Of a DNA stretch of 64,000 nucleotides, positions 9,260 through 60,948 are shown piece after piece (positions within the stretch are counted from its first letter, which is position 1; each line of letters starts with the position of its first letter). The notes below the pieces were generated by a model, which saw nothing but the letters and a program-made list of their open reading frames with translations, was not told the origin of the DNA and made no database searches. Made by a program: the position numbers and the translations under genes. This DNA comes from Azolla caroliniana (lineage: Eukaryota; Plantae; Polypodiophyta), in NCBI GenBank assembly GCA_043228905.1, contig JBHGNT010000008.1, forward strand, positions 11,470,001 through 11,534,000, in the 5' to 3' direction.

Positions 9260-11280
9260 GCTCCTCGGCCTGTTCGACTCCGCTCATTTCGACCCTTCCG
9301 GTCGGCTTGTCTACTCCCACAGCCCTTTACAGCTCCCTTGTTGTCACGGTGTTGGCACTTCTCCTGCTGCCTTCTTTTCCACTTGGCCCTCGGTTGATTC
9401 AGTGTATCCGAATCAAATATCTGAACCGACTCGGCTACCTCCGATTGGTTTTTGCTCTCGTCTGAGTTGGCTGTCTCCACCTCGTCTTCGGTCTTCTCGC
9501 CCTTGACGGTGTCATCTCCCACATGCTTGGTTGGCTTCGGCTCTCTCTTTCGGTTGCTCCCGTTATGTCCACTTTTGGACTCTTCCGCGAATCCGCCCTC
9601 GGCTTTTTCAGCCGATCCAAAGTCGAATTCGTCATCCGACCCGGCATCACGATCTTTTCCGCTCCTTTCCTGCTCCCTTCCGTGGTCATCCGGGACGTCT
9701 CTCCCCCTCAAGTTCGGCATGTCGAGGTGACGTGACCCAAGCGCACCTGAGAATTGTTGCAACTTGTCCAGACCAAGAGGCTTGGTGAAAATATCGGCGT
9801 GTTGCCGATCTGTTAGAACATACTGAGGTTTGACTTCACTAGAAAGGACACGCTCATGGACAAAATAGTAGTGCACCTCAATGTGCTTGGTCCGTGCGTG
9901 GAAAATGGGGTTCTTCGCAAGCTGGATGTTGTTGAGGTTGTCGTAGTAGATCGGCGTTGGATCAGACACCTCCTCTTGCAGGTTCCTAAGTAGCCGCTTC
10001 AACCATATGGCTTCGCATGTCGCGACAGCCGCTCGGCTTCGGTGCTCGACAGTGCAACTATCGGCTGCGTCTTACTCCTCCACGCTATCGCGGCACTCCC
10101 AAGAGAGAACACGTATCCGGATGTGGATCGGCAATCGGCAGTGTTGCTAGCCCAATCAACATCGGTGTAGCCAACCAACTGCGAGGCTGTACTTGACCTT
10201 CTACACCCACCTACATCTGATCGGCTTCACACCTTTCGGTGCGTCAACCATGTCCCAGGTTGCATTTTCCACCAATGCGTGCATCTGTTCCTCCATCGCG
10301 GCGCGCCAATTCGCATCCTTAGCCACTTCTGAGTAGCACTCCGGCTCACGCACTTCCGCTACACGGGTCATGTATGCATAATGATGCGCCATGTACTCGT
10401 TGTATCCGAACCGCACAACTGGGTTCTTCTGGCGGGTAGATCAGTGTAATCAGTCATTAGCTGATGTTGAGGTCTTCTCAGCCAACGCGGACTTCGCTCT
10501 TGAAGACCCGTCACCGCTTCCCTCGGAGTTGGACTCGCGTCGATCTAACTCTTTCCTATCCCTGCCGTAATCCGACACCTTCTTCTTCCCTTTTTCTTTG
10601 CGCGTAAGCCGTCTCCTTGGCTTCCTGCGGGGGGATTGCACAGCCGAGTCTCCGCTACTCACCGGCTCTTCATCGGACTGGTCGAACTGACTCAGTCGTC
10701 CATTTGGTCCACTTAACCGAAACAAAATCGGACTCTCTTCGCGGGTCCCGATTTCAGGCTCATTCGGAGGTATCTCGGCCTTGCTGACCTCATTGTCAGA
10801 ACTCGGATTGGAGGTGAGATCCGGAGTCAGAGGCAAATACCAGGACGCGGACTCGTCAAACACAACGTTGCGGCTCACGCGCGCTTGTTTGGTGCGCGGG
10901 TTATAACACTTATAACCCTTCTGCTCGTCTGAGTAACCGACCAAGATACATTTCTCAGCCTTTGCATCCAGCTTTCTCTGTTTCTCCTTCAGCACATGCA
11001 CATACGCAATGCTACCGAAAACTCGTAAGTGTCGCAAGTTCGGCTTCGTTCCGAAGTATAGCTCGTGCGCCGACACTTTTTCTCCAATCCGATTCTGGAT
11101 GTATACCGCGGTCCTTACTGCCTCGGCCCAGTAGACTTGGGCAAGCTCTTCACCGACCGATTTTTCCTCTCGGCCACGCTGTCGTAGTGTATTTCGTACA
11201 CTACGTGAAAAAGTAAAAATAATATAACCGATTTAATTACATATAAATAAATAAAATAATATATCAAGATATTTATCACG

Positions 11281-11352
11281 TGCATAGGGCAAGATTCGAA
11301 CCCTGTACCTCCACATAGCCAAACCTCAACTTTACCATTATGCTACATTATC
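11281..11352 (-). promoter_or_regulatory. tRNA-like Pol III type-2 promoter module inside the type-A LTR (also 14058-14129, 16835-16906, 19612-19683, 57588-57659)
   Basis: Minus-strand A box TAGCATAATGGT (11345-11334) and B box GGTTCGAATC (11302-11293) at tRNA spacing, with a T4 run ~25 nt downstream. Confidence 0.7.
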
Positions 11353-11615
11353 TTTAGTGTTTTATAAATAGATTTAATAACTATAAGTGCTTTATTTGCG
11401 CCTACCTTTATTAAAAGGTAAACCATGCATTTTTAGAGTGCGTGAATATTTTATAGAAAAACGCAAGCAACTAAAAAGTGACTCATGCACATCTAGCGTG
11501 CATGAGCACTATATTTAGCAAATAAAAGCAAGGATTAGAAAAGCATCACATGCACATTTAGTGTGCATGAACATATGAGAAAAAGCATGTAGCTATGCTT
11601 AGTCTCTCCCATCAC

Positions 11616-11622
11616 TATATAA
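11616..11622 (+). promoter_or_regulatory. Putative TATA box of the type-A LTR
   Basis: cTATATAAg, conserved in the diverged copy at ~57859. Confidence 0.6.
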
Positions 11623-11908
11623 GGATGGGGAGCACATTGTAGTTTTTGTTGATTATTTTTCTATAATGATCAATCAATCTAAAATATTCGTGGGATTCAC
11701 GAATTTGCGAAAATAATTCTCTCTTACTACCTAAATATTGACTAAATATACTAAACTCGTGGGATTCACGAGATTGCTATCTTACTTCTCTTTCTAATAA
11801 TCTATCCATTACTAGCCTCATCTCATATTCTTCTTTCTCCTAGTCCAAAACCCCAGCGGTTCCCACCCGACTCACGCAACGATCCGGAGCCGAAAGGCAC
11901 GACACAGT

Positions 11909-11926
11909 TGGTGAACCCGACGTGAA
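11909..11926 (+). promoter_or_regulatory. tRNA-Trp primer-binding site (also 14686, 17463, 49750, 53424; degenerate at 58143, 61402)
   Basis: TGGTGAACCCGACGTGAA is the reverse complement of the plant cytosolic tRNA-Trp 3' end (TTCACGTCGGGTTCA-CCA); it begins 4 nt after the LTR end. Confidence 0.88.
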
Positions 11927-11942
11927 GACGAGTGGCAAGGGG

Positions 11943-13757
11943 ATGGAGAATCAACAAGAGGCGATGAACATGATGATGATGATGGTTGAGCGGATGCAAC
12001 AAGAACAACGCGCGATGACGGAGATGAAGGCGGCAGTAGAGCGGCTTGTGCGACGAAATGGGGAATTCAACGGAAATGATGTGTCACACTATCTACGTGA
12101 CTACAAAGGGGAGATGATGCAATGTGGGATACCGGAAGGATTGCAAGTGATATCCTTCAGTCAGGTAGCCACGGATGAGTTACAAGAAAGAATCTACAAG
12201 ATACGGCAACAAAATCCAACATGGGGGTCCTTCGAAGAAGCTTTACGAGAGGCATATGATTACAAGAGATCGAAGGGAAAATATCGGCGAGAATTCGACG
12301 AATGGGTGGCATCGGAGAAGACCCACCGAAGTGCAACACAAGCATTCCTAGAGTTTGAGCATCGTTTTGCTCGACTCTAGGAGCGAGAACAACGATTGGT
12401 GGGAGAGGATAAAGTCCTAATGTTCGTAAAATCGATTGATCGAAAAGAAAGGATGGACATTGGGATCGAACTCGAAGACGATGAAGGTACAAATGGTCTT
12501 ACTGAAGATTGGGCCGAAGTCCAAAGGGTATGCCGGAGACATGATGAGAGGAAGATGAGAATCTTGTCAACGACATGGCTGATGAAGGATGGTCGATTGA
12601 AGACAAACGATGGAGCCGATATGAAGGCCGAAATACAACATGATGGTGCGACGGAAGAGGGTGTAAAACAAGCTACCCTCTTGTCTTGCGAAAGAACAAC
12701 GACGAAGGATAAGGCCAATAACCCAAGTGTAGAAGAAGATTTCGGATTACAAGTGGCTGAAACATCGGGTGAAAAAGGGGTAAGCATAATTGATGCAGTG
12801 AAAGAGAGCAAGGAGGACTTGATTGAGGAGGTCACCACGAAAGATGCCATCGAATCGAAGGTGGCTATGGACGAATCAACGACGGATGGCCATATCGAGA
12901 CTTCCCCACCACTAATTCTAGAGACTCCGGCGGTTGCGTTCGAAAGGCAACGTGAGACCGAAGAGACGGAAGGTGGTGGAGAGAAAACAAAGGTCGAAGC
13001 CGATTCATACGACGGAGAGATAGCCGAGAAGGAGGCTATGGTTGAAATGACAGAGGATGATAATACCGAGGATTCCTACCCACTAATTCTAGAGACTTCG
13101 GCGGTTGTGTCCGAGAACCAACGTGAGACCGGAGAGACAGGAGGTGGTGGCAAGAAAGGTAAAGTCGGAAGCCGGTTCGGATGGAAGGTGATCCGGACGG
13201 GATTCCGATCCGAAAGAAAGCCGAACCGGGTAAAAGACGATTCGGCCAAAAGACGAACCGAAAGAAAGCCGAACCGGGCGAATGAGGATTCGACCGAAAG
13301 TCGACCCGAAAGAAAGTTGAACCGGGCGAATGAGGATTCGGCCGAAAGACGACCCGAAAGAAAGCCGACCCGAAAAGGGGTCGACTCGGTCAAAACCGAT
13401 CGACCGAGTCTGACTTGGCCGAACGCGAATATGGATGGAAGCCGACCTAGCCGAAAGCCGATCGGACGAGACCGATCCGGAAAGAAGCTAATCCGACTCA
13501 ATCGGAGGTTGGACCGGTCGAGGCTGGTGAAAACGAGGAAAAGAAAGCCAACCGAAACCGAAACCGATAGATCGAAACCGGGCCGGAAGGAGACCGACTC
13601 AATCGAAACCGAACACGAATGCGATTCCGATTCGGCCGAATACGAATGCGATCGGAAGCCGATCAAACCGAAAGTTGATCGGACGAGAGAAATCCGGAAA
13701 AAAGTCAAGGTTGATGAAGACAAGAAAGAGGCCAGTAAAAGACACTACCACGAATGA
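11943..13757 (+). pseudogene. gag-like ORF with long charged tail and one in-frame TAG (12378-12380), array unit 1
   Basis: The 152-aa and 453-aa ORFs are in the same frame, and homologues read TCG at the stop position. Capsid-like segment FNGNDVSHYL...EFEHRFARL; no PR, RT or IN. Confidence 0.75.
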
Positions 13758-14719
13758 CAAGGGCCAAGAATATGACGAGAGAGAACAAAGAATATGGTGG
13801 ATCGGATGGCGACAATGGTTCGGGTGGAAAGAATGGGTCTACTCAAAATGGAGAGACAAAGTTGACATAGCGGGACAAACGGAGGATGAAGGGGAGACAA
13901 CGAGCATCGGCAACTTCGGCACATACCGGAGGATGTGCGGGTTCGGAGGGGGCGAGTGTCGTAGTGTATTTCGTACACTACGTGAAAAAGTAAAAATAAT
14001 ATAACCGATTTAATTACATATAAATAAATAAAATAATATATCAAGATATTTATCACGTGCATAGGGCAAGATTCGAACCCTGTACCTCCACATAGCCAAA
14101 CCTCAACTTTACCATTATGCTACATTATCTTTAGTGTTTTATAAATAGATTTAATAACTATAAGTGCTTTATTTGCGCCTACCTTTATTAAAAGGTAAAC
14201 CATGCATTTTTAGAGTGCGTGAATATTTTATAGAAAAACGCAAGCAACTAAAAAGTGACTCATGCACATCTAGCGTGCATGAGCACTATATTTAGCAAAT
14301 AAAAGCAAGGATTAGAAAAGCATCACATGCACATTTAGTGTGCATGAACATATGAGAAAAAGCATGTAGCTATGCTTAGTCTCTCCCATCACTATATAAG
14401 GATGGGGAGCACATTGTAGTTTTTGTTGATTATTTTTCTATAATGATCAATCAATCTAAAATATTCGTGGGATTCACGAATTTGCGAAAATAATTCTCTC
14501 TTACTACCTAAATATTGACTAAATATACTAAACTCGTGGGATTCACGAGATTGCTATCTTACTTCTCTTTCTAATAATCTATCCATTACTAGCCTCATCT
14601 CATATTCTTCTTTCTCCTAGTCCAAAACCCCAGCGGTTCCCACCCGACTCACGCAACGATCCGGAGCCGAAAGGCACGACACAGTTGGTGAACCCGACGT
14701 GAAGACGAGTGGCAAGGGG

Positions 14720-16534
14720 ATGGAGAATCAACAAGAGGCGATGAACATGATGATGATGATGGTTGAGCGGATGCAACAAGAACAACGCGCGATGACGGAG
14801 ATGAAGGCGGCAGTAGAGCGGCTTGTGCGACGAAATGGGGAATTCAACGGAAATGATGTGTCACACTATCTACGTGACTACAAAGGGGAGATGATGCAAT
14901 GTGGGATACCGGAAGGATTGCAAGTGATATCCTTCAGTCAGGTAGCCACGGATGAGTTACAAGAAAGAATCTACAAGATACGGCAACAAAATCCAACATG
15001 GGGGTCCTTCGAAGAAGCTTTACGAGAGGCATATGATTACAAGAGATCGAAGGGAAAATATCGGCGAGAATTCGACGAATGGGTGGCATCGGAGAAGACC
15101 CACCGAAGTGCAACACAAGCATTCCTAGAGTTTGAGCATCGTTTTGCTCGACTCTAGGAGCGAGAACAACGATTGGTGGGAGAGGATAAAGTCCTAATGT
15201 TCGTAAAATCGATTGATCGAAAAGAAAGGATGGACATTGGGATCGAACTCGAAGACGATGAAGGTACAAATGGTCTTACTGAAGATTGGGCCGAAGTCCA
15301 AAGGGTATGCCGGAGACATGATGAGAGGAAGATGAGAATCTTGTCAACGACATGGCTGATGAAGGATGGTCGATTGAAGACAAACGATGGAGCCGATATG
15401 AAGGCCGAAATACAACATGATGGTGCGACGGAAGAGGGTGTAAAACAAGCTACCCTCTTGTCTTGCGAAAGAACAACGACGAAGGATAAGGCCAATAACC
15501 CAAGTGTAGAAGAAGATTTCGGATTACAAGTGGCTGAAACATCGGGTGAAAAAGGGGTAAGCATAATTGATGCAGTGAAAGAGAGCAAGGAGGACTTGAT
15601 TGAGGAGGTCACCACGAAAGATGCCATCGAATCGAAGGTGGCTATGGACGAATCAACGACGGATGGCCATATCGAGACTTCCCCACCACTAATTCTAGAG
15701 ACTCCGGCGGTTGCGTTCGAAAGGCAACGTGAGACCGAAGAGACGGAAGGTGGTGGAGAGAAAACAAAGGTCGAAGCCGATTCATACGACGGAGAGATAG
15801 CCGAGAAGGAGGCTATGGTTGAAATGACAGAGGATGATAATACCGAGGATTCCTACCCACTAATTCTAGAGACTTCGGCGGTTGTGTCCGAGAACCAACG
15901 TGAGACCGGAGAGACAGGAGGTGGTGGCAAGAAAGGTAAAGTCGGAAGCCGGTTCGGATGGAAGGTGATCCGGACGGGATTCCGATCCGAAAGAAAGCCG
16001 AACCGGGTAAAAGACGATTCGGCCAAAAGACGAACCGAAAGAAAGCCGAACCGGGCGAATGAGGATTCGACCGAAAGTCGACCCGAAAGAAAGTTGAACC
16101 GGGCGAATGAGGATTCGGCCGAAAGACGACCCGAAAGAAAGCCGACCCGAAAAGGGGTCGACTCGGTCAAAACCGATCGACCGAGTCTGACTTGGCCGAA
16201 CGCGAATATGGATGGAAGCCGACCTAGCCGAAAGCCGATCGGACGAGACCGATCCGGAAAGAAGCTAATCCGACTCAATCGGAGGTTGGACCGGTCGAGG
16301 CTGGTGAAAACGAGGAAAAGAAAGCCAACCGAAACCGAAACCGATAGATCGAAACCGGGCCGGAAGGAGACCGACTCAATCGAAACCGAACACGAATGCG
16401 ATTCCGATTCGGCCGAATACGAATGCGATCGGAAGCCGATCAAACCGAAAGTTGATCGGACGAGAGAAATCCGGAAAAAAGTCAAGGTTGATGAAGACAA
16501 GAAAGAGGCCAGTAAAAGACACTACCACGAATGA
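14720..16534 (+). pseudogene. gag-like ORF, array unit 2
   Basis: Same translation as unit 1, including the internal TAG. Confidence 0.75.
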
Positions 16535-17496
16535 CAAGGGCCAAGAATATGACGAGAGAGAACAAAGAATATGGTGGATCGGATGGCGACAATGGTTCGG
16601 GTGGAAAGAATGGGTCTACTCAAAATGGAGAGACAAAGTTGACATAGCGGGACAAACGGAGGATGAAGGGGAGACAACGAGCATCGGCAACTTCGGCACA
16701 TACCGGAGGATGTGCGGGTTCGGAGGGGGCGAGTGTCGTAGTGTATTTCGTACACTACGTGAAAAAGTAAAAATAATATAACCGATTTAATTACATATAA
16801 ATAAATAAAATAATATATCAAGATATTTATCACGTGCATAGGGCAAGATTCGAACCCTGTACCTCCACATAGCCAAACCTCAACTTTACCATTATGCTAC
16901 ATTATCTTTAGTGTTTTATAAATAGATTTAATAACTATAAGTGCTTTATTTGCGCCTACCTTTATTAAAAGGTAAACCATGCATTTTTAGAGTGCGTGAA
17001 TATTTTATAGAAAAACGCAAGCAACTAAAAAGTGACTCATGCACATCTAGCGTGCATGAGCACTATATTTAGCAAATAAAAGCAAGGATTAGAAAAGCAT
17101 CACATGCACATTTAGTGTGCATGAACATATGAGAAAAAGCATGTAGCTATGCTTAGTCTCTCCCATCACTATATAAGGATGGGGAGCACATTGTAGTTTT
17201 TGTTGATTATTTTTCTATAATGATCAATCAATCTAAAATATTCGTGGGATTCACGAATTTGCGAAAATAATTCTCTCTTACTACCTAAATATTGACTAAA
17301 TATACTAAACTCGTGGGATTCACGAGATTGCTATCTTACTTCTCTTTCTAATAATCTATCCATTACTAGCCTCATCTCATATTCTTCTTTCTCCTAGTCC
17401 AAAACCCCAGCGGTTCCCACCCGACTCACGCAACGATCCGGAGCCGAAAGGCACGACACAGTTGGTGAACCCGACGTGAAGACGAGTGGCAAGGGG

Positions 17497-19311
17497 ATGG
17501 AGAATCAACAAGAGGCGATGAACATGATGATGATGATGGTTGAGCGGATGCAACAAGAACAACGCGCGATGACGGAGATGAAGGCGGCAGTAGAGCGGCT
17601 TGTGCGACGAAATGGGGAATTCAACGGAAATGATGTGTCACACTATCTACGTGACTACAAAGGGGAGATGATGCAATGTGGGATACCGGAAGGATTGCAA
17701 GTGATATCCTTCAGTCAGGTAGCCACGGATGAGTTACAAGAAAGAATCTACAAGATACGGCAACAAAATCCAACATGGGGGTCCTTCGAAGAAGCTTTAC
17801 GAGAGGCATATGATTACAAGAGATCGAAGGGAAAATATCGGCGAGAATTCGACGAATGGGTGGCATCGGAGAAGACCCACCGAAGTGCAACACAAGCATT
17901 CCTAGAGTTTGAGCATCGTTTTGCTCGACTCTAGGAGCGAGAACAACGATTGGTGGGAGAGGATAAAGTCCTAATGTTCGTAAAATCGATTGATCGAAAA
18001 GAAAGGATGGACATTGGGATCGAACTCGAAGACGATGAAGGTACAAATGGTCTTACTGAAGATTGGGCCGAAGTCCAAAGGGTATGCCGGAGACATGATG
18101 AGAGGAAGATGAGAATCTTGTCAACGACATGGCTGATGAAGGATGGTCGATTGAAGACAAACGATGGAGCCGATATGAAGGCCGAAATACAACATGATGG
18201 TGCGACGGAAGAGGGTGTAAAACAAGCTACCCTCTTGTCTTGCGAAAGAACAACGACGAAGGATAAGGCCAATAACCCAAGTGTAGAAGAAGATTTCGGA
18301 TTACAAGTGGCTGAAACATCGGGTGAAAAAGGGGTAAGCATAATTGATGCAGTGAAAGAGAGCAAGGAGGACTTGATTGAGGAGGTCACCACGAAAGATG
18401 CCATCGAATCGAAGGTGGCTATGGACGAATCAACGACGGATGGCCATATCGAGACTTCCCCACCACTAATTCTAGAGACTCCGGCGGTTGCGTTCGAAAG
18501 GCAACGTGAGACCGAAGAGACGGAAGGTGGTGGAGAGAAAACAAAGGTCGAAGCCGATTCATACGACGGAGAGATAGCCGAGAAGGAGGCTATGGTTGAA
18601 ATGACAGAGGATGATAATACCGAGGATTCCTACCCACTAATTCTAGAGACTTCGGCGGTTGTGTCCGAGAACCAACGTGAGACCGGAGAGACAGGAGGTG
18701 GTGGCAAGAAAGGTAAAGTCGGAAGCCGGTTCGGATGGAAGGTGATCCGGACGGGATTCCGATCCGAAAGAAAGCCGAACCGGGTAAAAGACGATTCGGC
18801 CAAAAGACGAACCGAAAGAAAGCCGAACCGGGCGAATGAGGATTCGACCGAAAGTCGACCCGAAAGAAAGTTGAACCGGGCGAATGAGGATTCGGCCGAA
18901 AGACGACCCGAAAGAAAGCCGACCCGAAAAGGGGTCGACTCGGTCAAAACCGATCGACCGAGTCTGACTTGGCCGAACGCGAATATGGATGGAAGCCGAC
19001 CTAGCCGAAAGCCGATCGGACGAGACCGATCCGGAAAGAAGCTAATCCGACTCAATCGGAGGTTGGACCGGTCGAGGCTGGTGAAAACGAGGAAAAGAAA
19101 GCCAACCGAAACCGAAACCGATAGATCGAAACCGGGCCGGAAGGAGACCGACTCAATCGAAACCGAACACGAATGCGATTCCGATTCGGCCGAATACGAA
19201 TGCGATCGGAAGCCGATCAAACCGAAAGTTGATCGAACGAGAGAAATCCGGAAAAAAGTCAAGGTTGATGAAGACAAGAAAGAGGCCAGTAAAAGACACT
19301 ACCACGAATGA
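17497..19311 (+). pseudogene. gag-like ORF, array unit 3
   Basis: Same translation as unit 1, with one synonymous G>A at 19236. Confidence 0.75.
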
Positions 19312-21751
19312 CAAGGGCCAAGAATATGACGAGAGAGAACAAAGAATATGGTGGATCGGATGGCGACAATGGTTCGGGTGGAAAGAATGGGTCTACTCAA
19401 AATGGAGAGACAAAGTTGACATAGCGGGACAAACGGAGGATGAAGGGGAGACAACGAGCATCGGCAACTTCGGCACATACCGGAGGATGTGCGGGTTCGG
19501 AGGGGGCGAGTGTCGTAGTGTATTTCGTACACTACGTGAAAAAGTAAAAATAATATAACCGATTTAATTACATATAAATAAATAAAATAATATATCAAGA
19601 TATTTATCACGTGCATAGGGCAAGATTCGAACCCTGTACCTCCACATAGCCAAACCTCAACTTTACCATTATGCTACATTATCTTTAGTGTTTTATAAAT
19701 AGATTTAATAACTATAAGTGCTTTATTTGCGCCTACCTTTATTAAAAGGTAAACCATGCATTTTTAGAGTGCGTGAATATTTTATAGAAAAACGCAAGCA
19801 ACTAAAAAGTGACTCATGCACATCTAGCGTGCATGAGCACTATATTTAGCAAATAAAAGCAAGGATTAGAAAAGCATCACATGCACATTTAGTGTGCATG
19901 AACATATGAGAAAAAGCATGTAGCTATGCTTAGTCTCTCCCATCACTATATAAGGATGGGGAGCACATTGTAGTTTTTGTTGATTATTTTTCTATAATGA
20001 TCAATCAATCTAAAATATTCGTGGGATTCACGAATTTGCGAAAATAATTCTCTCTTACTACCTAAATATTGACTAAATATACTAAACTCGTGGGATTCAC
20101 GAGATTGCTATCTTACTTCTCTTTCTAATAATCTATCCATTACTAGCCTCATCTCATATTCTTCTTTCTCCTAGTCCAAAACCCCAGCGGTTCCCACCCG
20201 ACTCACGCAACGATCCGGAGCCGAAAGGCACGACAACGCCGTTTTGCTCCGGCGTGTATCTACAACTGAATTCGCGCCGAATTCCCATCTGTTGTAGATA
20301 ACCGTTGAATTGACCCGAAAAGTATTCTTTTCCACCATCCGACCGTAGGCACTTGATCTTTCTTCCTGTTTCCATTTCCACGAACCCTTTGAGGTCCCGA
20401 AAACAGTCCAAGACTTCGCTCTTCCTCTCAATGAGGTAGATCCAAGTGTGTCGCGTCGCGTGTAGTCGTTGATGAAGGAGACGAAATATCGGCTCCTGCC
20501 AAGACTAACATTTTGTGTCTGCCCCCACACATCGGAGTGTATGAAATCGAGCTTGTTCCAGCTCTAGTTACACTCGTTGGGGAAAGGAAGTCGGTGTTGC
20601 TTCCCACGCTGGCAGGCTTCACAAATTTGTGCCTTCCGACCACTAAAATTGGGCAATCCGAACACCACTTTTTTCGATTGTAGGTCTAGAAACCACTGGT
20701 AGTTGACGTGGCCTATCCGCTTGTGCCATAAGTCGATGTCCGACTCGACTTTTTGTCCCTTCGCGAACATTGCAGTGCCATTGTCAGTAGAGTCGAGGAT
20801 GAACATCCTCCCATCTCTGCACCCTTGCGCAATAACACGGCCTTCTTCGTCAATGAAGCACCCGAGATGTGTAAACCGGACCTCCATCCCTTGGTCGACG
20901 ATCTGTCCGACGGACACCAAGTTCTTCGTGATTGTCGAAACGTGTAGCACGTTCATGAGTTTTCCTTTCTGCCCGACATGGCTCAGGGGAACTTCTCCGA
21001 CATTTGCGATCAGATGCGGAGTGTCATCTCCGGTTGCGACTACTCCTGGTTGGTTGCATCGGTTTTTCTAGGTACGAGAACCACTCCTTATGGCTCATCA
21101 TGTGATTTGACGCGCCGGAGTCGACATACCACACCTCGTTCGATTTCGGGGTGGTTTGCTTCAGTGATTGTGCTTCGTGTCTCTTCACGAAGGCAGACCC
21201 TTTTCCAGCTTTTCCGGATCCTTCGGCATAGTGCGATAGCTGCTGGTTTCCTTTATCGGTATGTTCGGAACCAGTCCTCTCCAACTCGGCGCGCTTTTTC
21301 TAGCACTCGCTCTCCCAGTGGCCTTTCTTGCCACAGTACCAGCATTCCGTGGCAGGTTTCCCTTGTCGGTTCTCATCGCCTCGACTCCCCCTGTTTCCGA
21401 AGGGTCCGGAATTGCTGTCGGCATCATTTCGGTGCCTCCTTCCTTGATCTCGTCGGTCGCCTCCATTGCGCACCGACTCGCCTCGTCCTCCACGTCCATG
21501 GGGCCTATCTCCCTCCATGTATAGCATCTTGTTGTCAGTGTGCGTGCTCGTTGACGCACCCGCGTGGTTCTCCTCTACCAAGAGCATCGACTGGAAGTCG
21601 AAAAAGGACGGCGTATTCTCCTGGGTACACACAGCAGTTCGGAACGCCCCGAATTTCGATGCCAAACCCCCGAGACAGACCTGGACCATCTCGCTTTCCT
21701 CGATGTTCACATCGATGGAAGCTAAGGAGTCGCATATGTCCTTGATCTTCG

Positions 21752-31571: not shown

Positions 31572-33347
31572 CTAGGAGAGGGTGGGAAAACGCATTTGGA
31601 CAATGCTCTGGAGCTCATCCATTACTTCCCATGAATTACTCCCCCTTCTCCTCCTACTACTACTTGTACTGATTCTATGACTACTACCACCAGTTGCTTC
31701 ATCATGATCATTACCATCATCGACATCATTGTCATCATGTGAACCTCTGTCTGCTGCTACTACCACCGCCACCGATGATATTGTGGCTGTAGCTGGAATA
31801 TTGTCGGTAGTAGCTGCAGTGTTTGGAGGAGGATGTGCTGCTGCTTCAACTACATGATGTTGTTGTTGCTGCTGCATACCACAAAAATGTTTCAATTACA
31901 AGAAGCAATATAGATATATGCAAATCGATTTTACTCAAAGGCGAGACCCTACTATGTCTAGATACCACTTTTTAAGTACTATTCGTGTCCTTCACATTTC
32001 TCAACACCTAATAATGTAGGGGAAAGAAGGAAAGTTATCACTATCAGCATATATATAATATATGTATATGTATGTATTAGAGAAGGGAATCCTGCCTCCC
32101 AGATACTCAAAACTAGATGCAATATCAGCTAGTAGTTCAATAAAAATTGAAGTAATGATAATACTTCACCCACCTGGCGAAACGCATCTAATTGTTGTTG
32201 CTGCAATATGTGGGTATGGTGACGGAGCTGCTGATGACTGCTAGTACTAGAGTTTAATTTACTAGGATGATCATTTACTTGATGACTAACATCATGATGA
32301 GGAGTGCCCTGATTTTGATCTAAATGCAGGCTCATGTTACTACTATAAAGCTGAGGAGTATGGTGCGCATTGTGATTATTAGTAGTTACATTACTACTAG
32401 GAGAGCTAGCATTATTAGTAGAATGTAAGAGTGTTGCCTGCATATTGTTTGGCAACATTGGCAATGGATTTTGGCTTTGTATGTTGTTGTTATTGCTATT
32501 GTTATTACTATTATTACTCCTGTTCATTAGATTCAGGGTGCCATTGAAGGACGCCACGGCATCCAGATTAATGCTTGTGGGGCTCGAAACTGTTGAGAGC
32601 TTCATCGACAAGAACTGGGTCATCATCGTCATGTCATGATGTCATCGTAGTTGTCATCCATCCACAGAATCATATAATAATTATTAAACGTAAGCCATGC
32701 TTATTTGATGTCTTATAATATTAAATAGATTGGACTCTGGAGAAATTATTCATACGAAGCACTCAAATGCAGCATAATGCTGAACATAGAAAGTACAATA
32801 CATACATACATACATACATACATACATACATACATACGTTATAAAAGAAAGAAAAGGAAGGTTGCATCGATCCCAGCACCTCACACAAAAGGAAAGTAAT
32901 CCAGCAATTTTGTTGATGGATCATGGATGTAATGTAAGTTTATATACAGTAGAGTAGTTAATGGGCAACAAAAGAAGATGGTGGCATCTGGAGATGTAGA
33001 CTACTAAAAGAAATCAATCTTGTGAGGTGGTAGTAGTAGTAGTACATATGTACATAGTTGCTCTGTAACTATTACAAAATCTCGCTCACTAGTGGTAAGT
33101 TAGTAACTACTAAAAGAAAGAAGTCACTAGTAGTAAGTTAGTAACTACTAAAAGAAAGAAGAGAGAGGAGGTTACAAAAGCCTTCCCTCTCTGTCATGTC
33201 ATGTACATAATGTCATATCATGGATGGATGGATCAAGAGCGTATATTTTCTATAACCTTAAAAAAGAAAACTTGGAGGTAAATGCCAATTAAAGCGTGCC
33301 CAACTCTCCTAGTTTTTACATTATTAGAATAATAATGCATCAACTGC

Positions 33348-33378
<31 letters not shown>

Positions 33379-35629
33379 GACATCAGTATAGTCGGTGACC
33401 CAAATCATTAAACTTCTGGATTTTAGACTCAGCAAAGCTGATTAATGACTTAATGATGAAAGCCAGAGCTGCAGCTTTCTTGCAATCTTAAAAGAACTCT
33501 AAACAATAATAATACCTCGACTTGTCTTTGTAAGGATTGCACATAGTTGATGATCTCATCCAGCATCACGGCTTTTCCTGTTACCTGCATCGTCATGGTT
33601 ATACCAAATTTAGTTAGACCCAACAACCTGAGGGCTCGGCTCGTTCAATCCTCAGAATGGGGATCCATGGGGCAGGCAGTGTTCATAAAATCACCTTGTT
33701 GCATCCGGGGACTAGATCTTGTAGGAACTTCATTCGTTCACTGATCTTCTCTCGACGGACCTGCCGTAAGAGTTATTGTAAGACATGATTTGTTTTAAAA
33801 CTCAGCCTCCTCCACCGAATGAATTATTACTATTACTATTTCAGTATTATTTGGGTTCTAATTATCCTGCTGGAAAGATAATTCCGAATTAGATCGAATT
33901 AGATCATGTAGAGACTGGTTAAACGTTATAATTAAGGAATACTAGATCTGTTTAATAGCTTCAGCTGAGCCTACCTACTAAGTAGAAAATGTTAGCGTCA
34001 AGAAACCAGAAATGCAAATGCCCTTCATATGGATTCAAAATTGATTCCACCAAAGCCACGTCTATCGGATATGCATATATATATATATATATATGCTAAG
34101 CTCAACACTATATGTACATATATATATTATAGACTCTCTCTCTCTCTCTCTCTCTCTTTCACTGTGTGTTGATGTCTTTATAAAAACGTCGTACGTACCC
34201 TTTCAGCAAGGCTATGGCTATCTGTTGCTTGGCCGCGTCGTGCTCGAACATGTATGTATTCTTGTTTGGGAGGGGGATCAGACAAGTGACTGGCTGGCTT
34301 GGGCTTCGGGTGCGGATCAGGGTCACCGCTGGCTACCAGCACCACCACGCTGCTGCCTTGATTTAATTCGGGTGCTTCCTCGGGATGGCTACTTATTTTC
34401 ACCTCGGAATTTGGCGCTGTACCAGAAGCAGAGTTAGCCGCTGTGCTATTTGTGGCGTAAGACCCTTCGCATTGATCCTCCTCTACCTCTAGTCCAATAC
34501 CAGCTACTAATCTTTCTTCCGCAGCTTCATCATCTTTTAATGAACGCTGGCATACTTTCTCTTCAATTAATGATATCTTCTCTGGAGGCATAATTAGAGC
34601 AGACGATCCATGAAGGCCCCTAGTATCCCCAGGACGTGGGCGTGGACTAGAACCGGTTAATTGCAGATCGTCAATGTTCATATCAGTTGCACAAGATTTA
34701 GAGGGTTTACTAATAATGTTATTATGGCTCATCAACTGTTTACTCAGTACTGGAACACCTGGTGATCCACTGGCGGAACTGTTAGATTTCCTCTTCTTGC
34801 AGGTAGAATTGAGTGTTAATGGAGGACCTGCACTAATGGATGATCTACCAGAGTTTGTTATGAATGTCGCCTCATGATTAGGATTCTCGTTAAAGATGGT
34901 ATGATCCAAATTGGAATGAGCATTCGCTGTATCGGGGGTAGGAGCAGTGCCTTGAGTATTTCGTTTACTGTCACAATTGAGAGGATTAAGAAGCATCGCA
35001 CTGAGTAGATCCGACTGATGAGAAATAGCAAGCTTGCCAGTGTTAGCCAAGAGAGGATTAAGAAGCTCGTTGTAATTAAGGCCACTATTTAATCCAAAAG
35101 CTATTTGTCCTCGGCGAGCATTACTGTTAAATGTGGGAGAGCTAGGGACTGATCTAGAGAGATATAAACGATGAGGGAAATTAGGGTTGGGGCTAAGGCT
35201 AGGGCTCGGGTTAGGGTTAGGGGTAGGGGTAGAGCTAGGATTAAACATAGGACTAGGACTAGGGGCTGGGCTAAGGTTAGGGCTAGTGTTAAAATTAGGG
35301 AAACCTAATCCACCATGGCCAAAGCTCGAGAATCGTGCTGCTCGGTCAGCGAAGCCGGGATCCGAAGGAAAAGTCACATTATGAAACAGAGTTGGAGCAG
35401 AGTTCACACTCAAGCTTCCATTAAAGCTGCCCAGGTTGTCTATATTGTTGTTACTCACGTGGATTAAAGGCTGATTATATTTTCTGAGATCATGAGGAGA
35501 AGAGCAAGCTGAAGAGGAGGCGGAGTTAGTGTTATTATGACTATTATTAATGATGTGGAAATGGAAAGCTTCTTCTTCCCAATCTGTGGGAGCTGCTGCA
35601 GCCGTAGTAGGAATAATAGTCCCATCCAT
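31572..35629 (-). CDS. bHLH transcription factor of the CIB/BEE-like subfamily, 5 exons, ~768 aa: join(35629-34199, 33760-33695, 33584-33516, 32614-32174, 31871-31572)
   Basis: EYIHVRARRGQATDSHSLAER|VRREKISERMKFLQDLVPGCNK|VTGKAVMLDEIINYVQSLQRQVE|FLSMKL, with GT-AG phase-0 introns at the conserved bHLH positions. Family motifs DPGFADRAARFS (N-terminal) and WE..DELQSIVQM.F (C-terminal) are present. Confidence 0.93.
33085..33160. repeat. ~39-bp tandem duplication in bHLH intron 3
   Basis: tcactagt(g/a)gtaagttagtaactactaaaagaaagaag occurs twice. Confidence 0.85.
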
Positions 35630-48160: not shown

Positions 48161-48519
48161 TGTCGTGTGGTTTTTCACACACGATATGAAAAACTATGTA
48201 AACAAATAATGAAATAATTATTTTAGATTAGATTAGTAGCTTGTTATAGAAAGATAGATGTACTCAAGAGCTTTAAAACGCATTTCACTACATAGAAAAT
48301 GGAAGTTATGAGAACATAAAGTTTGAGAAGATAGGGAAAATAGAACTATGATTTATCTCACATAGATAGGAAACATAAGGCCTTGGTTATATAAGCAGGG
48401 TTTAGGGTTCTCATTGAGATCCCTCATTTTTCATTTGTGCTAAGATAACAATGCCGTTAAGCAAATCGGAACTAGCTGGTAAGCAAACCAGAACCGGTTG
48501 TTAAGCAATCCGGAACTAG
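48161..48519 (+). mobile_element. 5' part of a type-B/C LTR of the tRNA-Trp family, interrupted by another family member
   Basis: Starts TGTCGTGTGGTTTTTCACACACGA; body matches the LTR at 48520. Confidence 0.85.
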
Positions 48520-54500: not shown

Positions 54501-55960
54501 ACGATGATCATGAAGAGACTTTCCCCACACTCGTTGTTGAGACTTGGGCATTAACCGATGTAAGACCCAAGAGATGGAAGGTAGCGGCGAAGAAACAAAG
54601 GTCAAAACCAATGCAGACAACGATAAGGTGCACGCGGCTAAGGGTAGTACGACAAAGTCAATGCCAAACTACAAAATTCCTCCACACTCGTTCGAGAGAC
54701 TTGGGCATTAACCGATGTAAGACCCAAGCGAAGCACGGTGGCGGCGAGGAAGCAAGGGTTAAAGCTAATGTGTGCAACAAGCACGTAAAGCAAAGCAAAA
54801 TGACGAAAATCCATGCGTGCGACAAAGAGGTCAAGCAAAGCACGAAGACAAAAGCTAATGTGTGCGACAAAGAGACCAAACAAACCTCAAAAAGCAAAGA
54901 TATGGGCCAAGTGGGCCAAACGGATATGAAAGATGTGATCACAAAATCTAAAAAGGATAATACTAGCGTAGAAGTCATGGTCAAGTCCAACACGAGAGTA
55001 TACCAGGAAATGAGTGCAAAAAGTGAGAAGCATGAAATGTGTTCACTTAAGGACCTTGAGATGAGCATGTAGTTGAAGAATGAACCACTAAGAGTACTCA
55101 ACAATAATATTTCGACAAGGCCTTCGAAAGGCATGCATGGAACAAGAAAGAATGATAAAAGAAAATTAGATGACCAAGGAGATGGCTGAGATGAAGGTAG
55201 CACATGCATAAGGAGTGAAGCATTATGCTCTAGAGGAGCAAAGAGAGCCATGACAATTGGTCATGGAAATGCAAAGAGTGGACGAAGAATATGGTGGATC
55301 GGATGGCAATGGTGATTCGGGTACATTGATGAATAAGGAAAGTTATCAAAAGTGGAGCCTCACCAAAATTGGCACATACCGGTGGATGTGCAGGTTTGGT
55401 GGGGGTGAATGTCGTGTGAATATTCACACACTATATAAAAACTATGTAAAAATATAGTGAAATAATTATTTTAGATTAGATTAGTAGCTTGTTATAGAAA
55501 GATGGATGTACTCAAGAGCTTTAAAACACATTTCACTACATACAAAATGGAAGTTATGAGAAATGAAGTTTGAGAAGATAGGGAAAATAGAACTATGATT
55601 TATCCCACATAGATAGGAAACTTAAGGCCCTAGCTATATAAGCACATTGAGATCCGTCATTTTTTATTTGCGCTAAGAGCACTTTGTCCACTTATTCTAG
55701 ATGGATGAATGTGGCCAAGTTACGAAAAAACCAAACTGGAACCGGTCGGAAAGCAAATCGGAACTGGTCAAAAAGCAAATCATAATCGGTTGGTAAGCAA
55801 TCTGGAATTGGCCAGTAAGCAAACTGTAACCGGTTGGAGAGCAAACCGGAACCTGCCAGAAAGCAAACTGGAACTGGCCGGAAAGCAAAAGGGAATCGGT
55901 CGGAAAGCAAACTGTAACCGGTTGGAAAGCAAACCGGAACCGGTTGGAAAGCAAACCGGA
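48520..55960 (+). mobile_element. Shared-LTR chain of non-autonomous tRNA-Trp elements with type-B LTRs (LTR-int-LTR-int-truncated LTR)
   Basis: LTRs 48520-49745, 51620-53419 and 55410-~55960; PBS at 49750 and 53424; PPT ggtggggg(c/t)gaa before 51620 and 55410; decayed gag-like ORFs (DKVLMFVKSIDRKE homologues). Confidence 0.88.
52904..53195. repeat. ~37-bp telo-box (AAACCCTAA)-containing tandem repeat, 8 units, within a type-B LTR
   Basis: Unit aaaaaccctaatttccctacggaagccataagactc. Related arrays at ~49405-49535, ~60950-61185 and ~63630-63745. Confidence 0.9.
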
Positions 55961-57483: not shown

Positions 57484-60400
57484 TGTCGTAGTGTGAATCA
57501 CACACTATGTGAAATATGTAAAACACTATATCCGATTTAGAGTACGTATAATAAATAATAAATAAAATATTAAAAATATTTATTACGTGCATAGGGCAAG
57601 ATTTGAACCCTGTAGCTCCACGTAGACAAACCCCAGCCTTACCACTATACTAGCATACTATGAATTTTAAAGTTATACTAAACTTTATCCATGTAAATAT
57701 TCTAGATATGCATGGTACAAAAAGTTATTCATGCATGCACACTCGAGTTAAAAGAGAAGATGGGATAGAAAGCTAATCATGCACATGCAGTGTGCATGAA
57801 AACTAAAGTTAGGAAAAGCATGATGCTTGGATGTGATAAACTTAGACTCTTCCAACACTATATAAGGAAGAGAGAAAGATGTAGAGGATTGTTGATTTTT
57901 TTTTTAGAAGGATTGATTAATACAAAATATTCGTGGGATTCATGATTTTACCATCTAATTCTCTCTTACAATCTAATTACCCATTAATGCATTATACTCG
58001 TGGGATTCACGGGTTTCATATCTTCTTCTTACAATCTCTTCCTAACTAACATTATCTCATATTCTTCTTTCTCCGAGTCCAAAACCCCAGCGGTTCCCAC
58101 CCGACTCACACAAACGATCCAGCGCCGAAAGGCATGACACAGTGGTGAACCCGATGTTAAAGAGGTGGTAGGGAGGATATCAAGTGCAAAGATGGCTTCG
58201 ACAAGCGGAACTCAAGGAGAAGAATTGATGAAAGGCATCATGTCCGTCGTAGAAATCATGCTCAAGGCGAGAGATCGAGAGGCTTTTATCAACGAAGCTA
58301 GATACAAAGACTCGAAGAGATGCAGCCTATACGAGTTCGACCAATGGGTGCCATCGATGAAGACCCACCACAGTGCCATGCATGCTTTTGTTGAGTTTGA
58401 GTGTCGCTTTGCGCAACTCTCGGAGCGGGATCAAAGATTAGTGGGGGACGATAAAGTCCTAATGTTCGTGAAATCGATCGATCGGAATGAAAGGAAGGCC
58501 ATTGGAATCCAACTCGAGGATGACGATGGTGCAAATGTCCTCATCGAGAATTGGGCCAAAGTGGAAAGGGTATGTCGACAACATGACGAGAGGAAGACAA
58601 GATTCTCGTCGACAAGAACATGACCCATGAGAGAGGATCAAAGGAGAACGGGATGTGGCAATACACCACCACCGAAGGAAGAAAGCTCGAAGACGGAAGA
58701 TTCGATACTCAACATAGGAGCCTTAATTAGAGAAGCAATAGAGAACTTAAAGGTGCAAAGTGATGCTGAAGAGAAGCTTCAAAAGGAGCAAAAATTGAAG
58801 CAGATGGTGAGCGAGGACGAAGAGACCTCCCAACAAATGTGGATTAATGATACGGCCAATACGAAGGCCCAAGTTCAATACGACAACACCACGGGAGAAG
58901 GTGTGGAACAAGATGCCTTTGTCTTTCAAAGAAACAATGATGAAGAATGAAACCAATGAATCGAGGGTGGTGAATGCCACTTCAAGCGAGGACAAATGTT
59001 TCGGAACACGCATCGTGTCTGAAACATCATGTGATGAAGGTGCAAGCATGAGCAAAGCTTGCATGATGAAGGGAGATAAAAAGTGTGAGGTCAACATGAT
59101 TGAGGAGATAGCCACGAAAAATGACATCGAGTCAGAGGTGGCTATGGACGAGTCAATGGCGGGTGGTCGTGTCAAGACATTTTCCACAGTTGTTCTAGAA
59201 ACTTGGGCAGATGTGTCGAAAAGAAAATGTGAGACCCAAGAGACGGAAGGTGGCGGCGAGGAAGTGAAGGCCGAAGCTAACACATGCGAAGAAGAGGGAG
59301 ATGTCAAGATGAAGAGGGTAGACAATGATGATGAAGAGACTTTCCCCACAAAAGTTCCTGAGGCTTGGGCATTAACCGATGTAAGACCTAAGAAACGGAA
59401 GGTGGTGGTGAAGAAGCAAAGATCAAAGCCAATGCGAACAACCATAAGGTGGAAGTGGCTAAGGGTAGCACAACAAAGGCAATGGCAAACTACAAAATTG
59501 TATAAATCCCTCTACACTTGTTTGAGAGACTTGGGCATTAACCGATGTAAGACCCAAGAGAAGGATGGTGGCGGCGAGGAAGCAAGGGTTGAAGCTAGTG
59601 TGGGCAACAAGGAAGTCATGGTCCACTCCAAAGTATACCACGAAAGTAGAAAAACTGAGAAGCATGAAATGTGTTCACTTAAGGACCTCGAGGTGAGCAT
59701 GCAGTTGAAAAATGGACCACTAAGAGTACTCAACAATAGTATTTCGATAAAGCCTTCGAAAGGCATGCATGAAACAAGAAAGGATGATAAAAGAAAGTTA
59801 GATGACCAAGGAAATGGTCGAGATGAAGGTGACACATGTACAAAGCATACAACGTTATGCTCTACAGGAGAAAAGGCAGCCATGACAACCAGCCATGGAA
59901 ATGCAAAGAGTGAGCGAAGAATATGGTAGATTGGATGGCAATGGCAGTTCGGGTATGAAGAAGAAACATCGATGAAGTAGAGTAATAAAAAGAGGAACCT
60001 CACCACAATTGGCACATACTGGTGGATGTGCAGGTTTGGTGGGGGTGAATGTCGTGTGGTTTTTCACACACGATATGAAAACTAGTAAAACAATTATTTA
60101 AGATTAGCTTAATGTATTCATATGGAAAGATAGATGTCTTCAAGAGCTTCATAGCGTATTTTACTACGCATGAAACGAATAAACAAGTATCAAGTTATGT
60201 GAGTGTGAAGTTTAAAGAAGAAAAAAGAAACGACAAAACAGTGAGATATCCCACATAGATAGGACAACATTGGAACCCAGGATATATAAGGGAAACCAAA
60301 ACTTATTCATTCTATCAATGTTTGCAGCATAGAATGTTCAAGGTGACTTTATGGATGATTGGATCATTTGGCCGAATTATACGGACGGTCGCATGCAACT

Positions 60401-60935
60401 AAAACTAAAAGGCATGCAACTAAAAATGGAAGCATGCAACTAAAAGTAGGGGCCATGCAACTAATAATAGAGGCCATGCAACTAAAGGTGGACATGCAAG
60501 GTAACATTGGGGAGGAGGATCAACAAAGAGCTTGATATATGTTCCATTTTTTTTCATCTACTTTTTTTTCCTTCTTCTTCTCTCGGAGATTTCAAAACCA
60601 AACTATCTCTCATATTGATATCACATTCTTAGCTTGGCTTGCTCAATCTTCCTTGTCAAAAATTATCTTTGATATTCATATAGGACCACTCCTTATATGG
60701 TTGTTGGCTCCTTTCTTTAAAAATTTTATCTCTCATTTTCATTTCCAACCCGTTCTAACAAGATTCTTGAATTATAAAAGAATCTATTTTCTTATGCAAT
60801 AAACAAACGTTTTCTCTCATTTACTCGTCTTATATGTGAATTTTGCTTGTGTTGTACGTGTTGCACTAAATCCTTCTAGTCCAACCCTGGCAGTTCCGCC
60901 TCACGATCCGCACATAGTGACGGATTTTCACGACA
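57484..60935 (+). mobile_element. Chimeric tRNA-Trp element: type-A 5' LTR, internal region, type-C 3' LTR
   Basis: LTR 57484-58139 resembles 11180-11904; PBS at 58143; gag-like ORFs 58165-59929; PPT; then LTR 60050-60935, related to type B rather than type A. Confidence 0.82.
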
Positions 60936-60948
60936 TAATAAAGTGGTC

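What the first reader, a model, noticed from the sequence alone, without database searches (positions are those of the whole stretch)
11281..11352. tRNA-derived Pol III module carried antisense inside the LTR of a non-autonomous retroelement (Cassandra-like, but tRNA rather than 5S)
Seen: each type-A LTR has a minus-strand A box (TAGCATAATGGT) and B box (GGTTCGAATC) whose starts are 43 nt apart, followed by TTTT. In the diverged LTR at 57484 the block is well preserved (TAGTATAGTGGTAAG...CGTGGAG...GGTTCAAATC) while the sequence right after it has diverged. Known: TAGTATAGTGGTAAG matches the D-arm of plant tRNA-Asp, and Cassandra TRIMs carry a Pol III 5S module in their LTRs. Inference: the module may make a ~100-nt antisense Pol III RNA, or recruit TFIIIC as an insulator or anti-silencing element. 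The cloverleaf is not intact, so it is not a functional tRNA.
Basis: partly seen in the sequence, partly recalled or inferred. Interest (0 to 1): 0.78.

Follow-up and report, generated by a model that had tools for sequence, protein, structure and literature searches.

The report
Backward tRNA relic in retrotransposon repeats
A family of plant jumping genes carries, backwards inside its end repeats, a 72-base decayed tRNA look-alike whose two promoter boxes are better kept than the sequence between them, so it likely serves as a docking site for the host's tRNA-transcription factor and not as the element's own promoter, a backward variant of the published Helenus design.

Summary
Real. A minus-strand A box (11345-11334) and B box (11302-11293), 43 nt apart, lie in a 72-nt tRNA-length block in U3 of a 725-bp LTR; 0 of 5000 shuffles give this. 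The host is a Phygy-like Gypsy element (4-bp NCGN target duplication), here a gag-only tandem array whose four identical LTRs count once. Six diverged LTRs keep the block without a gap; box sites change half as often as U3 background (P=0.007, related sequences). The cloverleaf is broken and the tRNA-Asp source is not supported. tRNA-bearing LTRs are published (Helenus, PMC10886601) and this scan met them in other genomes, but not this block. It fails Helenus membership: antisense, 3.5-kb element, TATA-type LTR, also beside an integrase gene (L006). Best reading: a captured tRNA or SINE head likely kept as a TFIIIC site upstream of the Pol II promoter (0.45). Against: the invariant B-box C is lost in about 25-30% of laid contig depth, the tRNA 3' end is as conserved as the boxes, and sister LTRs lack the block. 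No transcript or binding data. New variant of a known kind.

The parts
11281..11352 (-). 72-nt decayed tRNA-like module (tRNA positions 1-73), antisense in U3
   Evidence: gap-free in 6 of 6 module-bearing LTRs
11334..11345 (-). A box (D-arm 5' half); T8, G10, A14, G19 invariant in 6 of 6 copies, G18 in 5 of 6
11293..11302 (-). B box (T-loop); G53, T55, A58, C61 invariant in 6 of 6, C56 and T54 each lost in 1 of 6
11281..11292 (-). T-stem 3' strand, acceptor 3' strand and discriminator; the most conserved part (2 changes in 12 sites); on + it overlaps ACGTG/CATGCA-type motifs
   Evidence: real tRNAs L130 and L131 share this 3' half
11253..11256 (-). first T4 run after the module, candidate Pol III terminator (first T5 at 11219-11215)
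   Evidence: T4 begins 11 nt past the module in 4 of the other 5 copies; chance level not tested
11180..11904 (+). type-A LTR, 725 bp, TG...CA with 6-bp inverted ends; first of four identical copies (13957, 16734, 19511)
11616..11622 (+). TATA motif, likely the Pol II promoter of the element, ~270 bp from the A box
   Evidence: 3 changes in 15 sites around it across six copies; role inferred
11484..11504 (+). conserved CATGCA-armed inverted repeat in U3, a second constrained block
   Evidence: 12-nt windows at 0.85 identity; depth peak
11909..11926 (+). primer-binding site, likely tRNA-Trp
   Evidence: isotype recalled, consistent with Phygy; two look-ups for the tRNA found nothing
11922..13757 (+). 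gag-like reading frame with an in-frame stop at 12378-12380, then a repetitive acidic/basic tail; no pol in the unit
   Evidence: gag label inferred from position, no Pfam hit above cut-off
13945..13956 (+). polypurine tract
11176..20239 (+). tandem array of three 2777-bp units plus a last LTR, flanked by a 4-bp ACGC duplication (11176-11179, 20236-20239), inserted in a minus-strand Copia-type integrase gene
   Evidence: Copia label from the reading frames on either side and recall
57588..57659 (-). diverged copy of the module in the type-A LTR at 57484-58139

Best explanation
The 72-base block is a decayed tRNA look-alike lying backwards in the U3 part of a Gypsy-type LTR; it was likely captured once as a tRNA gene or SINE head and is likely kept because its A and B boxes would bind the host factor TFIIIC next to the element's own Pol II promoter. 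Shown: sequence, orientation, fixed 43-nt spacing in six diverged LTRs, lower change rate at the boxes, loss of the cloverleaf, presence beside both gag-only and integrase-coding interiors. Inferred: single capture, then copying by normal LTR replication. Predicted and untested: TFIIIC (with or without TFIIIB and Pol III) occupies the boxes and keeps the outer end of the LTR open, or forms a barrier between flanking chromatin and the promoter ~270 bp inside. A short antisense RNA of about 85-110 nt ending at the first T run would be a by-product. It cannot make the element's genomic RNA because it points outward. Origin from tRNA: about 0.9. This function: about 0.45.
For: Chance: 0 of 5000 shuffles at tRNA spacing. 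The block lies in the longest gap-free stretch of the six-LTR alignment (102 columns; the next is 59). Parsimony changes per site: A box 0.58, B box 0.40, anticodon loop and 5' stem strand 1.31, acceptor 5' strand 1.86, U3 background 0.95; boxes 11 changes in 22 sites, P=0.007 against U3 columns and P=0.049 within the module (related sequences, so not strict probabilities). 8 of 11 tRNA-invariant positions never change. Columns with a transversion: 1 of 22 in the boxes against 30 of 83 around them. In public runs, 15 contigs (X1) and 21 contigs (X20) leave the reference at 11313, differ through the anticodon arm and return to the A box in register. A two-box pattern drawn from the copies hits ARAGORN tRNAs in 115 of 120 viral loci, at 52-53 nt span against 53 here. 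D-stem pairs 10-25, 11-24 and 13-22 hold in 18 of 18 cells. RNA stems are otherwise lost and no shared fold exists (SCI 0.43), which fits a DNA-level role. A/B boxes recruiting TFIIIC in plants: PMC13437025 (passages).
Against: The invariant B-box C56 is changed in about 25% (X1) and 30% (X20) of laid contig depth, more than the tolerated G57 change (14%, 11%; contig depth is not copy number). The B-box CG is kept in 4 of 6 copies, no better than other CGs of the LTR. Only 4 of 6 copies pass the strict consensus, and L009 carries 3 private box changes. The tRNA 3' end outside the boxes is more conserved than the boxes (2 changes in 12 sites), which TFIIIC binding does not explain. Other U3 blocks are as conserved. 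Six type-B LTRs in the window, with the same PBS and related gag, have no module, and 2 of the 6 metagenome LTRs whose U3 could be read lack it (L001, L003), so it is not needed for mobility in this clade. No binding or transcript data.
Confidence: 0.45

Rival explanations
1. Passenger: a tRNA or SINE head inserted once into an ancestral LTR and has been copied along with no role of its own; the pattern of conservation reflects few, related samples and a more mutable middle.
For: B-box CG decays like other CGs; sister LTRs lack the block; only six copies, four of them from one subfamily (pairwise 0.74-0.85). Kojima notes that 'not a few LTRs' in Repbase hold part of a tRNA (PMC10886601).
Against: No indel in 72 nt across LTRs that are 62-85% identical and indel-rich elsewhere; box sites slower than the anticodon arm and both flanks; return to the A box in register in 36 contigs of two runs. 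No convincing SINE target duplication (longest flanking repeats 6-8 nt, all AT-rich), no free copy in the window or in 9 metagenome loci, and at most 1% of laid contigs run on into unlike sequence.
Confidence: 0.2
2. Pol II enhancer reuse: the captured tRNA survives because its 3' half, read on the plus strand, supplies ACGTG and CATGCA-type binding motifs for plant transcription factors (names ABRE and RY recalled), like the CATGCA-armed repeat at 11484-11504.
For: 11281-11315 is the best-kept part of U3 and the depth peak in the most distant run (about 210,000 at 11280-11307 against 7,700 at 11336-11363 in X20); CATGCA motifs recur in other conserved U3 blocks.
Against: Does not explain a conserved A box 43 nt away with fixed spacing; the motif itself alternates between CATGCA (4 copies) and CGTGCA (2 copies). 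The low A-box depth in X20 is partly a mapping effect of the variable middle (loose ends).
Confidence: 0.15
3. The product matters: Pol III makes a ~85-110-nt antisense RNA that pairs with U3 of the element's genomic RNA or feeds small-RNA pathways and so tunes copy number or silencing.
For: T4 begins 11 nt past the module in 4 of 6 copies, within the +1 to +25 window used for plant tRNA genes (PMC13437025). A-box positions 10-14 can pair with 68-72 in 30 of 30 cells on the minus strand, which could explain the conserved 3' end. Pol III cassettes in an LTR are known for bovine foamy virus (PMC8266288, passages).
Against: That pairing has an invariant 3' side and is the predicted fold in only 2 of 6 copies; fold z-scores are -1.0, -0.65 and -0.5; the consensus fold is reached by 50 of 500 column shuffles. 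The flank is T-rich, so T4 may be chance.
Confidence: 0.1
4. tRNA docking site: on the genomic RNA the block is complementary to a tRNA and would act as the 3' half of a split primer-binding site, as in Ty3, or as the tRNA-like sequence in HIV-1 U3-R that aids strand transfer.
For: Explains the antisense orientation and U3 position; Ty3 pairs the T and D arms of its primer with U3 (PMC5371799, passages); the HIV-1 case is cited in PMC6468702 (passage and reference).
Against: The module is not a copy of the primer tRNA: positions 59-73 match the PBS-implied 3' end at only 7 of 15. No complement of CCA precedes the block, so it is not a second PBS. Type-B LTRs use the same PBS without it. The primer's D arm could not be fetched, so D-arm pairing is untested.
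Confidence: 0.07
5. A Helenus or Cassandra-type element in which the small-RNA promoter transcribes the element itself.
For: tRNA-like sequence with kept A and B boxes in an LTR, with PBS and PPT, broken cloverleaf (PMC10886601).
Against: Module points away from the PBS; LTR-to-LTR length is 3,502 bp against 311-1263 bp for Helenus; the plus strand of the unit has 6 T4+ runs; a conserved TATA is present; the module also occurs after an integrase gene.
Confidence: 0.03

Closest known systems
Helenus (TRIMp3), Kojima 2024, PMC10886601 (read parts 1-4 of 6 of the text, passages, and one supplement passage)
   Same: tRNA-like sequence inside an LTR, A and B boxes conserved, tRNA structure non-functional, PBS and PPT present, SINE insertion into an LTR proposed as origin; one plant family known (Selaginella).
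   Different: Helenus is a non-coding TRIM of 311-1263 bp; the module is in sense in the four LTR consensus sequences seen in the supplement passage and is proposed to transcribe the element. Here it is antisense, in a 725-bp TATA-bearing LTR of a 3.5-kb gag-bearing element, and is shared with an integrase-coding element, which Kojima thought unlikely for TRIMp3.
Cassandra TRIM (as described in PMC10886601; original paper not read)
   Same: Pol III gene-derived module in the LTR of a plant element; tandem arrays also occur in such small elements (stated for LTR-11_DR).
   Different: 5S-derived, and it starts and ends the element's own transcript; here tRNA-derived and pointing outward.
Phygy clade of non-chromovirus Ty3/gypsy, Neumann et al. 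2019, PMC6317226 (passages, section 9, one supplement row)
   Same: 4-bp NCGN target duplication (ACGC here; ACG- right flanks in L002, L005, L006, L008), tRNA-Trp PBS dominant (81%).
   Different: Phygy was defined from Physcomitrella, 7.7-10 kb and coding; this unit is 2.8 kb and lacks pol. No tRNA-like LTR module is mentioned in the parts read. I built no RT tree.
Ty3 bipartite PBS (PMC5371799, passages) and tRNA-Lys3-like sequence in HIV-1 U3-R (cited in PMC6468702; original not read)
   Same: Sequence complementary to a tRNA in U3 of the genomic RNA.
   Different: There the sequence matches the primer tRNA; here it does not (7 of 15 at positions 59-73).
B2 SINE boundaries (PMC8136502, abstract only) and foamy-virus LTR Pol III cassettes (PMC8266288, passages)
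   Same: SINE copies acting as chromatin boundaries; Pol III units inside an LTR.
   Different: The B2 abstract ties the boundary to CTCF, not TFIIIC; foamy cassettes make microRNAs. Neither is a plant LTR retrotransposon.

Membership tests
Helenus (TRIMp3) | tRNA-like sequence with A and B boxes inside the LTR | tested here: met
Helenus (TRIMp3) | two LTRs with PBS and PPT between, short TSD | tested here: met
   TSD is 4 bp, plant Helenus 5 bp
Helenus (TRIMp3) | miniature size (311-1263 bp), non-coding | tested here: not met
   3,502 bp LTR-to-LTR with a gag-like frame; L006 copy follows an integrase gene
Helenus (TRIMp3) | module in sense, able to transcribe the element | tested here: not met
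   module on minus, PBS and PPT on plus; sense in Helenus-1_SMo
Cassandra | 5S rRNA-derived LTR module | tested here: not met
   no Rfam 5S hit at E<=10; pattern retrieves tRNAs
Phygy-like Ty3/gypsy | 4-bp NCGN target duplication | tested here: met
   ACGC on both sides
Phygy-like Ty3/gypsy | tRNA-Trp PBS | tested here: inconclusive
   PBS present; Trp assignment recalled; the cognate tRNA was not found in two collections
Phygy-like Ty3/gypsy | RT/RH/INT phylogeny within Phygy | not tested
   unit has no pol; the L006 frame matches RT-RH-INT polyproteins, nearest named in Riccia (62-67% for most) and Adiantum; no tree built
functional tRNA gene | intact cloverleaf | tested here: not met
   53% of cells pair, no compensatory pairs; ARAGORN calls none at thresholds 80-100
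tRNA-derived SINE (free family) | dispersed copies with own TSD and unrelated flanks | tested here: inconclusive
   none in the window or 9 loci; no clear TSD; <=1% run-on in laid contigs; no whole genome held
type 2 Pol III transcription unit | TFIIIC/Pol III occupancy or transcript | not testable with these tools
   no RNA holder listed; contigs cannot show strand or ends
bipartite PBS (Ty3 type) | U3 segment complementary to the primer tRNA's T and D arms | tested here: inconclusive
   T-stem 3' strand and acceptor end do not match the primer (7 of 15); D arm of the primer not available

The most novel reading that the evidence does not exclude
A lineage of plant Gypsy retrotransposons, autonomous and non-autonomous alike, has domesticated a backward tRNA gene in U3 as a built-in TFIIIC/Pol III barrier that shields its Pol II promoter from silencing, or makes its own antisense regulator: a retrotransposon that carries a tRNA-type insulator to every new insertion site.
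Probability: 0.3. Interest if true: 0.75.

Novelty: new variant of a known kind. Interest (0 to 1): 0.42.

Why it matters
Known Pol III modules in LTRs (Cassandra, Helenus, Ajax) are explained as the element's own promoter. A conserved module that points outward, in a Pol II-type LTR shared with integrase-coding elements, needs another reason to be kept. If TFIIIC binds it, a high-copy family would scatter candidate chromatin boundaries through a plant genome and give a ready test of whether tRNA-type boxes act as insulators in plants. If it does not, it is an old SINE or tRNA scar and of modest interest.

Tried and rejected
No whole genome is held, so no genome-wide copy alignment. Rfam and ARAGORN: no tRNA call; ARAGORN scores 3 of 6 copies as pseudogenes only at threshold 70 and 5 of 6 at 60, with inconsistent isotypes. 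BLAST of the module against phages: 6 weak hits, none a tRNA. A stricter two-box pattern found 0 viral loci. Searches for more family copies found none in genome contigs or viral contigs. The primer tRNA was not found. A profile of 92 viral tRNAs ranks the module first in the window (E=0.048) and scores L006, L007 and L004 at 1e-6 to 4e-3, but misses L009 and is partly circular because those tRNAs were chosen by the box pattern. L130 and L131 were likewise found by a pattern from the module's 3' half. Expression: no RNA holder listed; nothing was laid from two guessed-RNA runs X21 and X22; both blanks are uninformative. Host lineage: the nearby bHLH exon has no close named relative; I can say only non-seed-plant-like by the element's relatives. 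Source isotype: Asp, Gly, Gln, Ala, His and Trp resemblances were considered from memory; none could be tested against plant tRNAs, so it is left open. Conserved RNA fold rejected. Of 9 metagenome loci, 3 were dropped from the count because U3 was not covered (L002, L008 contig ends; L005 only the 3' end of the LTR); L001 and L003 lack the module and were left out of the six-copy statistics. Literature: ten searches; in the listings and the passages read I saw no report of an antisense tRNA module in a plant Gypsy LTR, but most hits were seen as listings only, and Repbase entries set aside by Kojima's size filter may hold such cases.

Full report
The element. The finding lies in a 725-bp LTR at 11180-11904 with inverted 6-bp ends. 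Four identical copies (11180, 13957, 16734, 19511) frame three 2777-bp units that differ by 0-1 base, so they are one data point. A 4-bp ACGC duplication flanks the array, which interrupts a minus-strand Copia-type integrase gene. The PBS at 11909 and a purine tract before each downstream LTR put the element on the plus strand. The unit holds a gag-like frame with an in-frame stop at 12378-12380 and no pol. Neumann et al. give Phygy a 4-bp NCGN duplication in 100% of 186 elements and a tRNA-Trp PBS in 81% (PMC6317226). The duplication fits; the Trp assignment of this PBS is recalled. I call the element Phygy-like without a tree.

The observation. The A box (11345-11334) and B box (11302-11293) are on the minus strand, 43 nt apart, as stated. 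The 72 nt of the finding take canonical tRNA numbering without a gap. With a recalled textbook consensus, 17 of 5000 LTR shuffles give a box pair at 30-60 nt and 0 of 5000 at 42-46 nt; 9 of 10 pairs in the window fall in the five type-A LTRs. ARAGORN and Rfam do not call it.

More copies. A scan of metagenome contigs with the U5 motif, which does not favour the module, gave 9 loci. U3 was readable in 6: four carry the module (L004, L006, L007, L009), L003 has most of U3 deleted, and L001 has a different U3. With the two window types this gives six module-bearing LTRs at 62-85% pairwise identity. In L006 the LTR follows the C-terminal part of a Gypsy integrase, 73-79% identical to the best-matching integrase-bearing proteins, including full RT-RH-INT polyproteins, so the module is not confined to gag-only elements. 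Thousands of contigs from four runs of four coded organisms lie on the LTR; depth is about 2-10 times higher on U5 than on the module, which suggests many related LTRs lack it or have diverged (depth is not copy number). Six type-B LTRs at 48161-63984 share the PBS and a related gag but have no module.

Is it tRNA-derived? A two-box pattern taken from the copies hits ARAGORN-called tRNAs in 115 of 120 viral loci, with a span of 52-53 nt against 53 here; the isotypes are mostly Gln (69) and Gly (21), none Asp. Two real tRNAs share the module's T arm and 3' end, although the search pattern selected for that. T32, A38 and three D-stem pairs are kept in all six copies. The acceptor and anticodon stems are broken (53% of cloverleaf cells pair, no compensatory change) and there is no shared alternative fold. 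So tRNA ancestry, direct or through a SINE head, is likely (about 0.9); the isotype is open. I found no free SINE copy and no clear target duplication, but had no whole genome.

Is it under selection? The block sits in the longest gap-free stretch of the alignment (102 columns). Parsimony changes per site are 0.58 (A box) and 0.40 (B box) against 1.31 (anticodon loop and 5' strand), 1.86 (acceptor 5' strand) and 0.95 (U3 background); permutation P=0.007 against U3 and 0.049 within the module. The sequences are few and related, so these are indications. Independently, 15 contigs in run X1 and 21 in X20 diverge after 11313 and rejoin the A box in register. Against: C56 of the B box is changed in about 25-30% of laid depth, more than the tolerated G57 change (11-14%); the B-box CG survives in 4 of 6 copies, like other CGs; 2 of 6 copies fail the strict consensus; and the tRNA 3' end beyond the B box is the best-kept part (2 changes in 12 sites). 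Decay after insertion can explain the CG loss, but I could not separate it from loss in replicating lineages. In 23-43% of depth position 62 is C, the canonical B-box base.

Mechanism. The module points out of the element, so it cannot make the genomic RNA; a conserved TATA at 11616-11622 likely does. Kept boxes and spacing with lost RNA stems fit a DNA-binding role. In plants A/B boxes recruit TFIIIC (PMC13437025, passages). I therefore favour a TFIIIC docking site at the outer end of U3 that would keep the LTR open or bound it against flanking chromatin, with a ~85-110-nt antisense RNA as a possible by-product (0.45). Rivals: passenger (0.2), reuse of the 3' half as Pol II motifs (0.15), a functional antisense RNA (0.1), tRNA docking on the genomic RNA as in Ty3 (0.07; the module matches the primer's implied 3' end at only 7 of 15), and a Helenus-type promoter (0.03). 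No step of the function is shown: no RNA holder was listed and that blank says nothing.

Known systems. Kojima (2024, PMC10886601; parts 1-4 of 6 read) named TRIMs with tRNA-like LTRs Helenus, including one in Selaginella, so 'Cassandra with a tRNA' is published. This element works unlike Helenus and is not a member: antisense against sense, 3.5 kb against at most 1.3 kb, a TATA-type LTR, and shared with an integrase-coding element. Kojima also notes that 'not a few' Repbase LTRs contain part of a tRNA but analysed only those under 1000 bp, so similar cases may sit there undescribed. Ten literature searches (listed under Tried and rejected) showed no report of this arrangement. The scan's own notes hold Helenus-type or similar Pol III-box elements from other genomes and nothing like this LTR by sequence or position.

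Verdict. Observation confirmed, interpretation partly supported. New variant of a known kind; interest 0.42, rising to about 0.75 if TFIIIC binding with an effect on the LTR is shown.

Noticed in passing
window 57484-61397: An element with a type-A 5' LTR (57484-58139), PBS and gag-like interior but a type-B LTR at its 3' end (from 60050), inside a run of type-B units: likely a recombinant or nested pair between two LTR types that share PBS, PPT and gag.
   Followed up: partly
window 48161-63984: Tandem run of type-B gag-only elements with long LTRs (about 1.2-1.8 kb) holding 22-nt and 28-37-nt internal repeats; the first ~45 nt, including a small hairpin, resemble the type-A LTR start.
   Followed up: partly
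window 11176-20239: Three 2777-bp units identical but for one base, sharing LTRs: a very young tandem array or an assembly artefact.
   Followed up: partly
window 11684-11770: The motif CGTGGGATTCAC occurs twice 69 nt apart downstream of the TATA and two or three times in every related LTR; among the best-kept blocks. Role unknown.
   Followed up: no
window 11840-11904: U5 end (C-rich, about 60 nt) is near-invariant in all 9 loci (selected on it) and has the highest laid depth in all four runs; it directly precedes the PBS and may be a packaging or priming signal shared by many LTR subtypes.
   Followed up: no
L006:720-880 (+): About 150-nt insertion of CCGG-rich short repeats near the LTR 5' end, just outside the module, absent from the other five copies.
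   Followed up: no
window 32129-35629 (-): Host bHLH gene (PF00010 family by its hits) between TE clusters; only the start of the bHLH domain matches named plant proteins, the rest has no close relative.
   Followed up: partly
window 56490-57331 (-): Fragment of a Gypsy pol just outside the 57484 LTR; no Pfam hit; might be the element into which the 57484 copy inserted.
   Followed up: no
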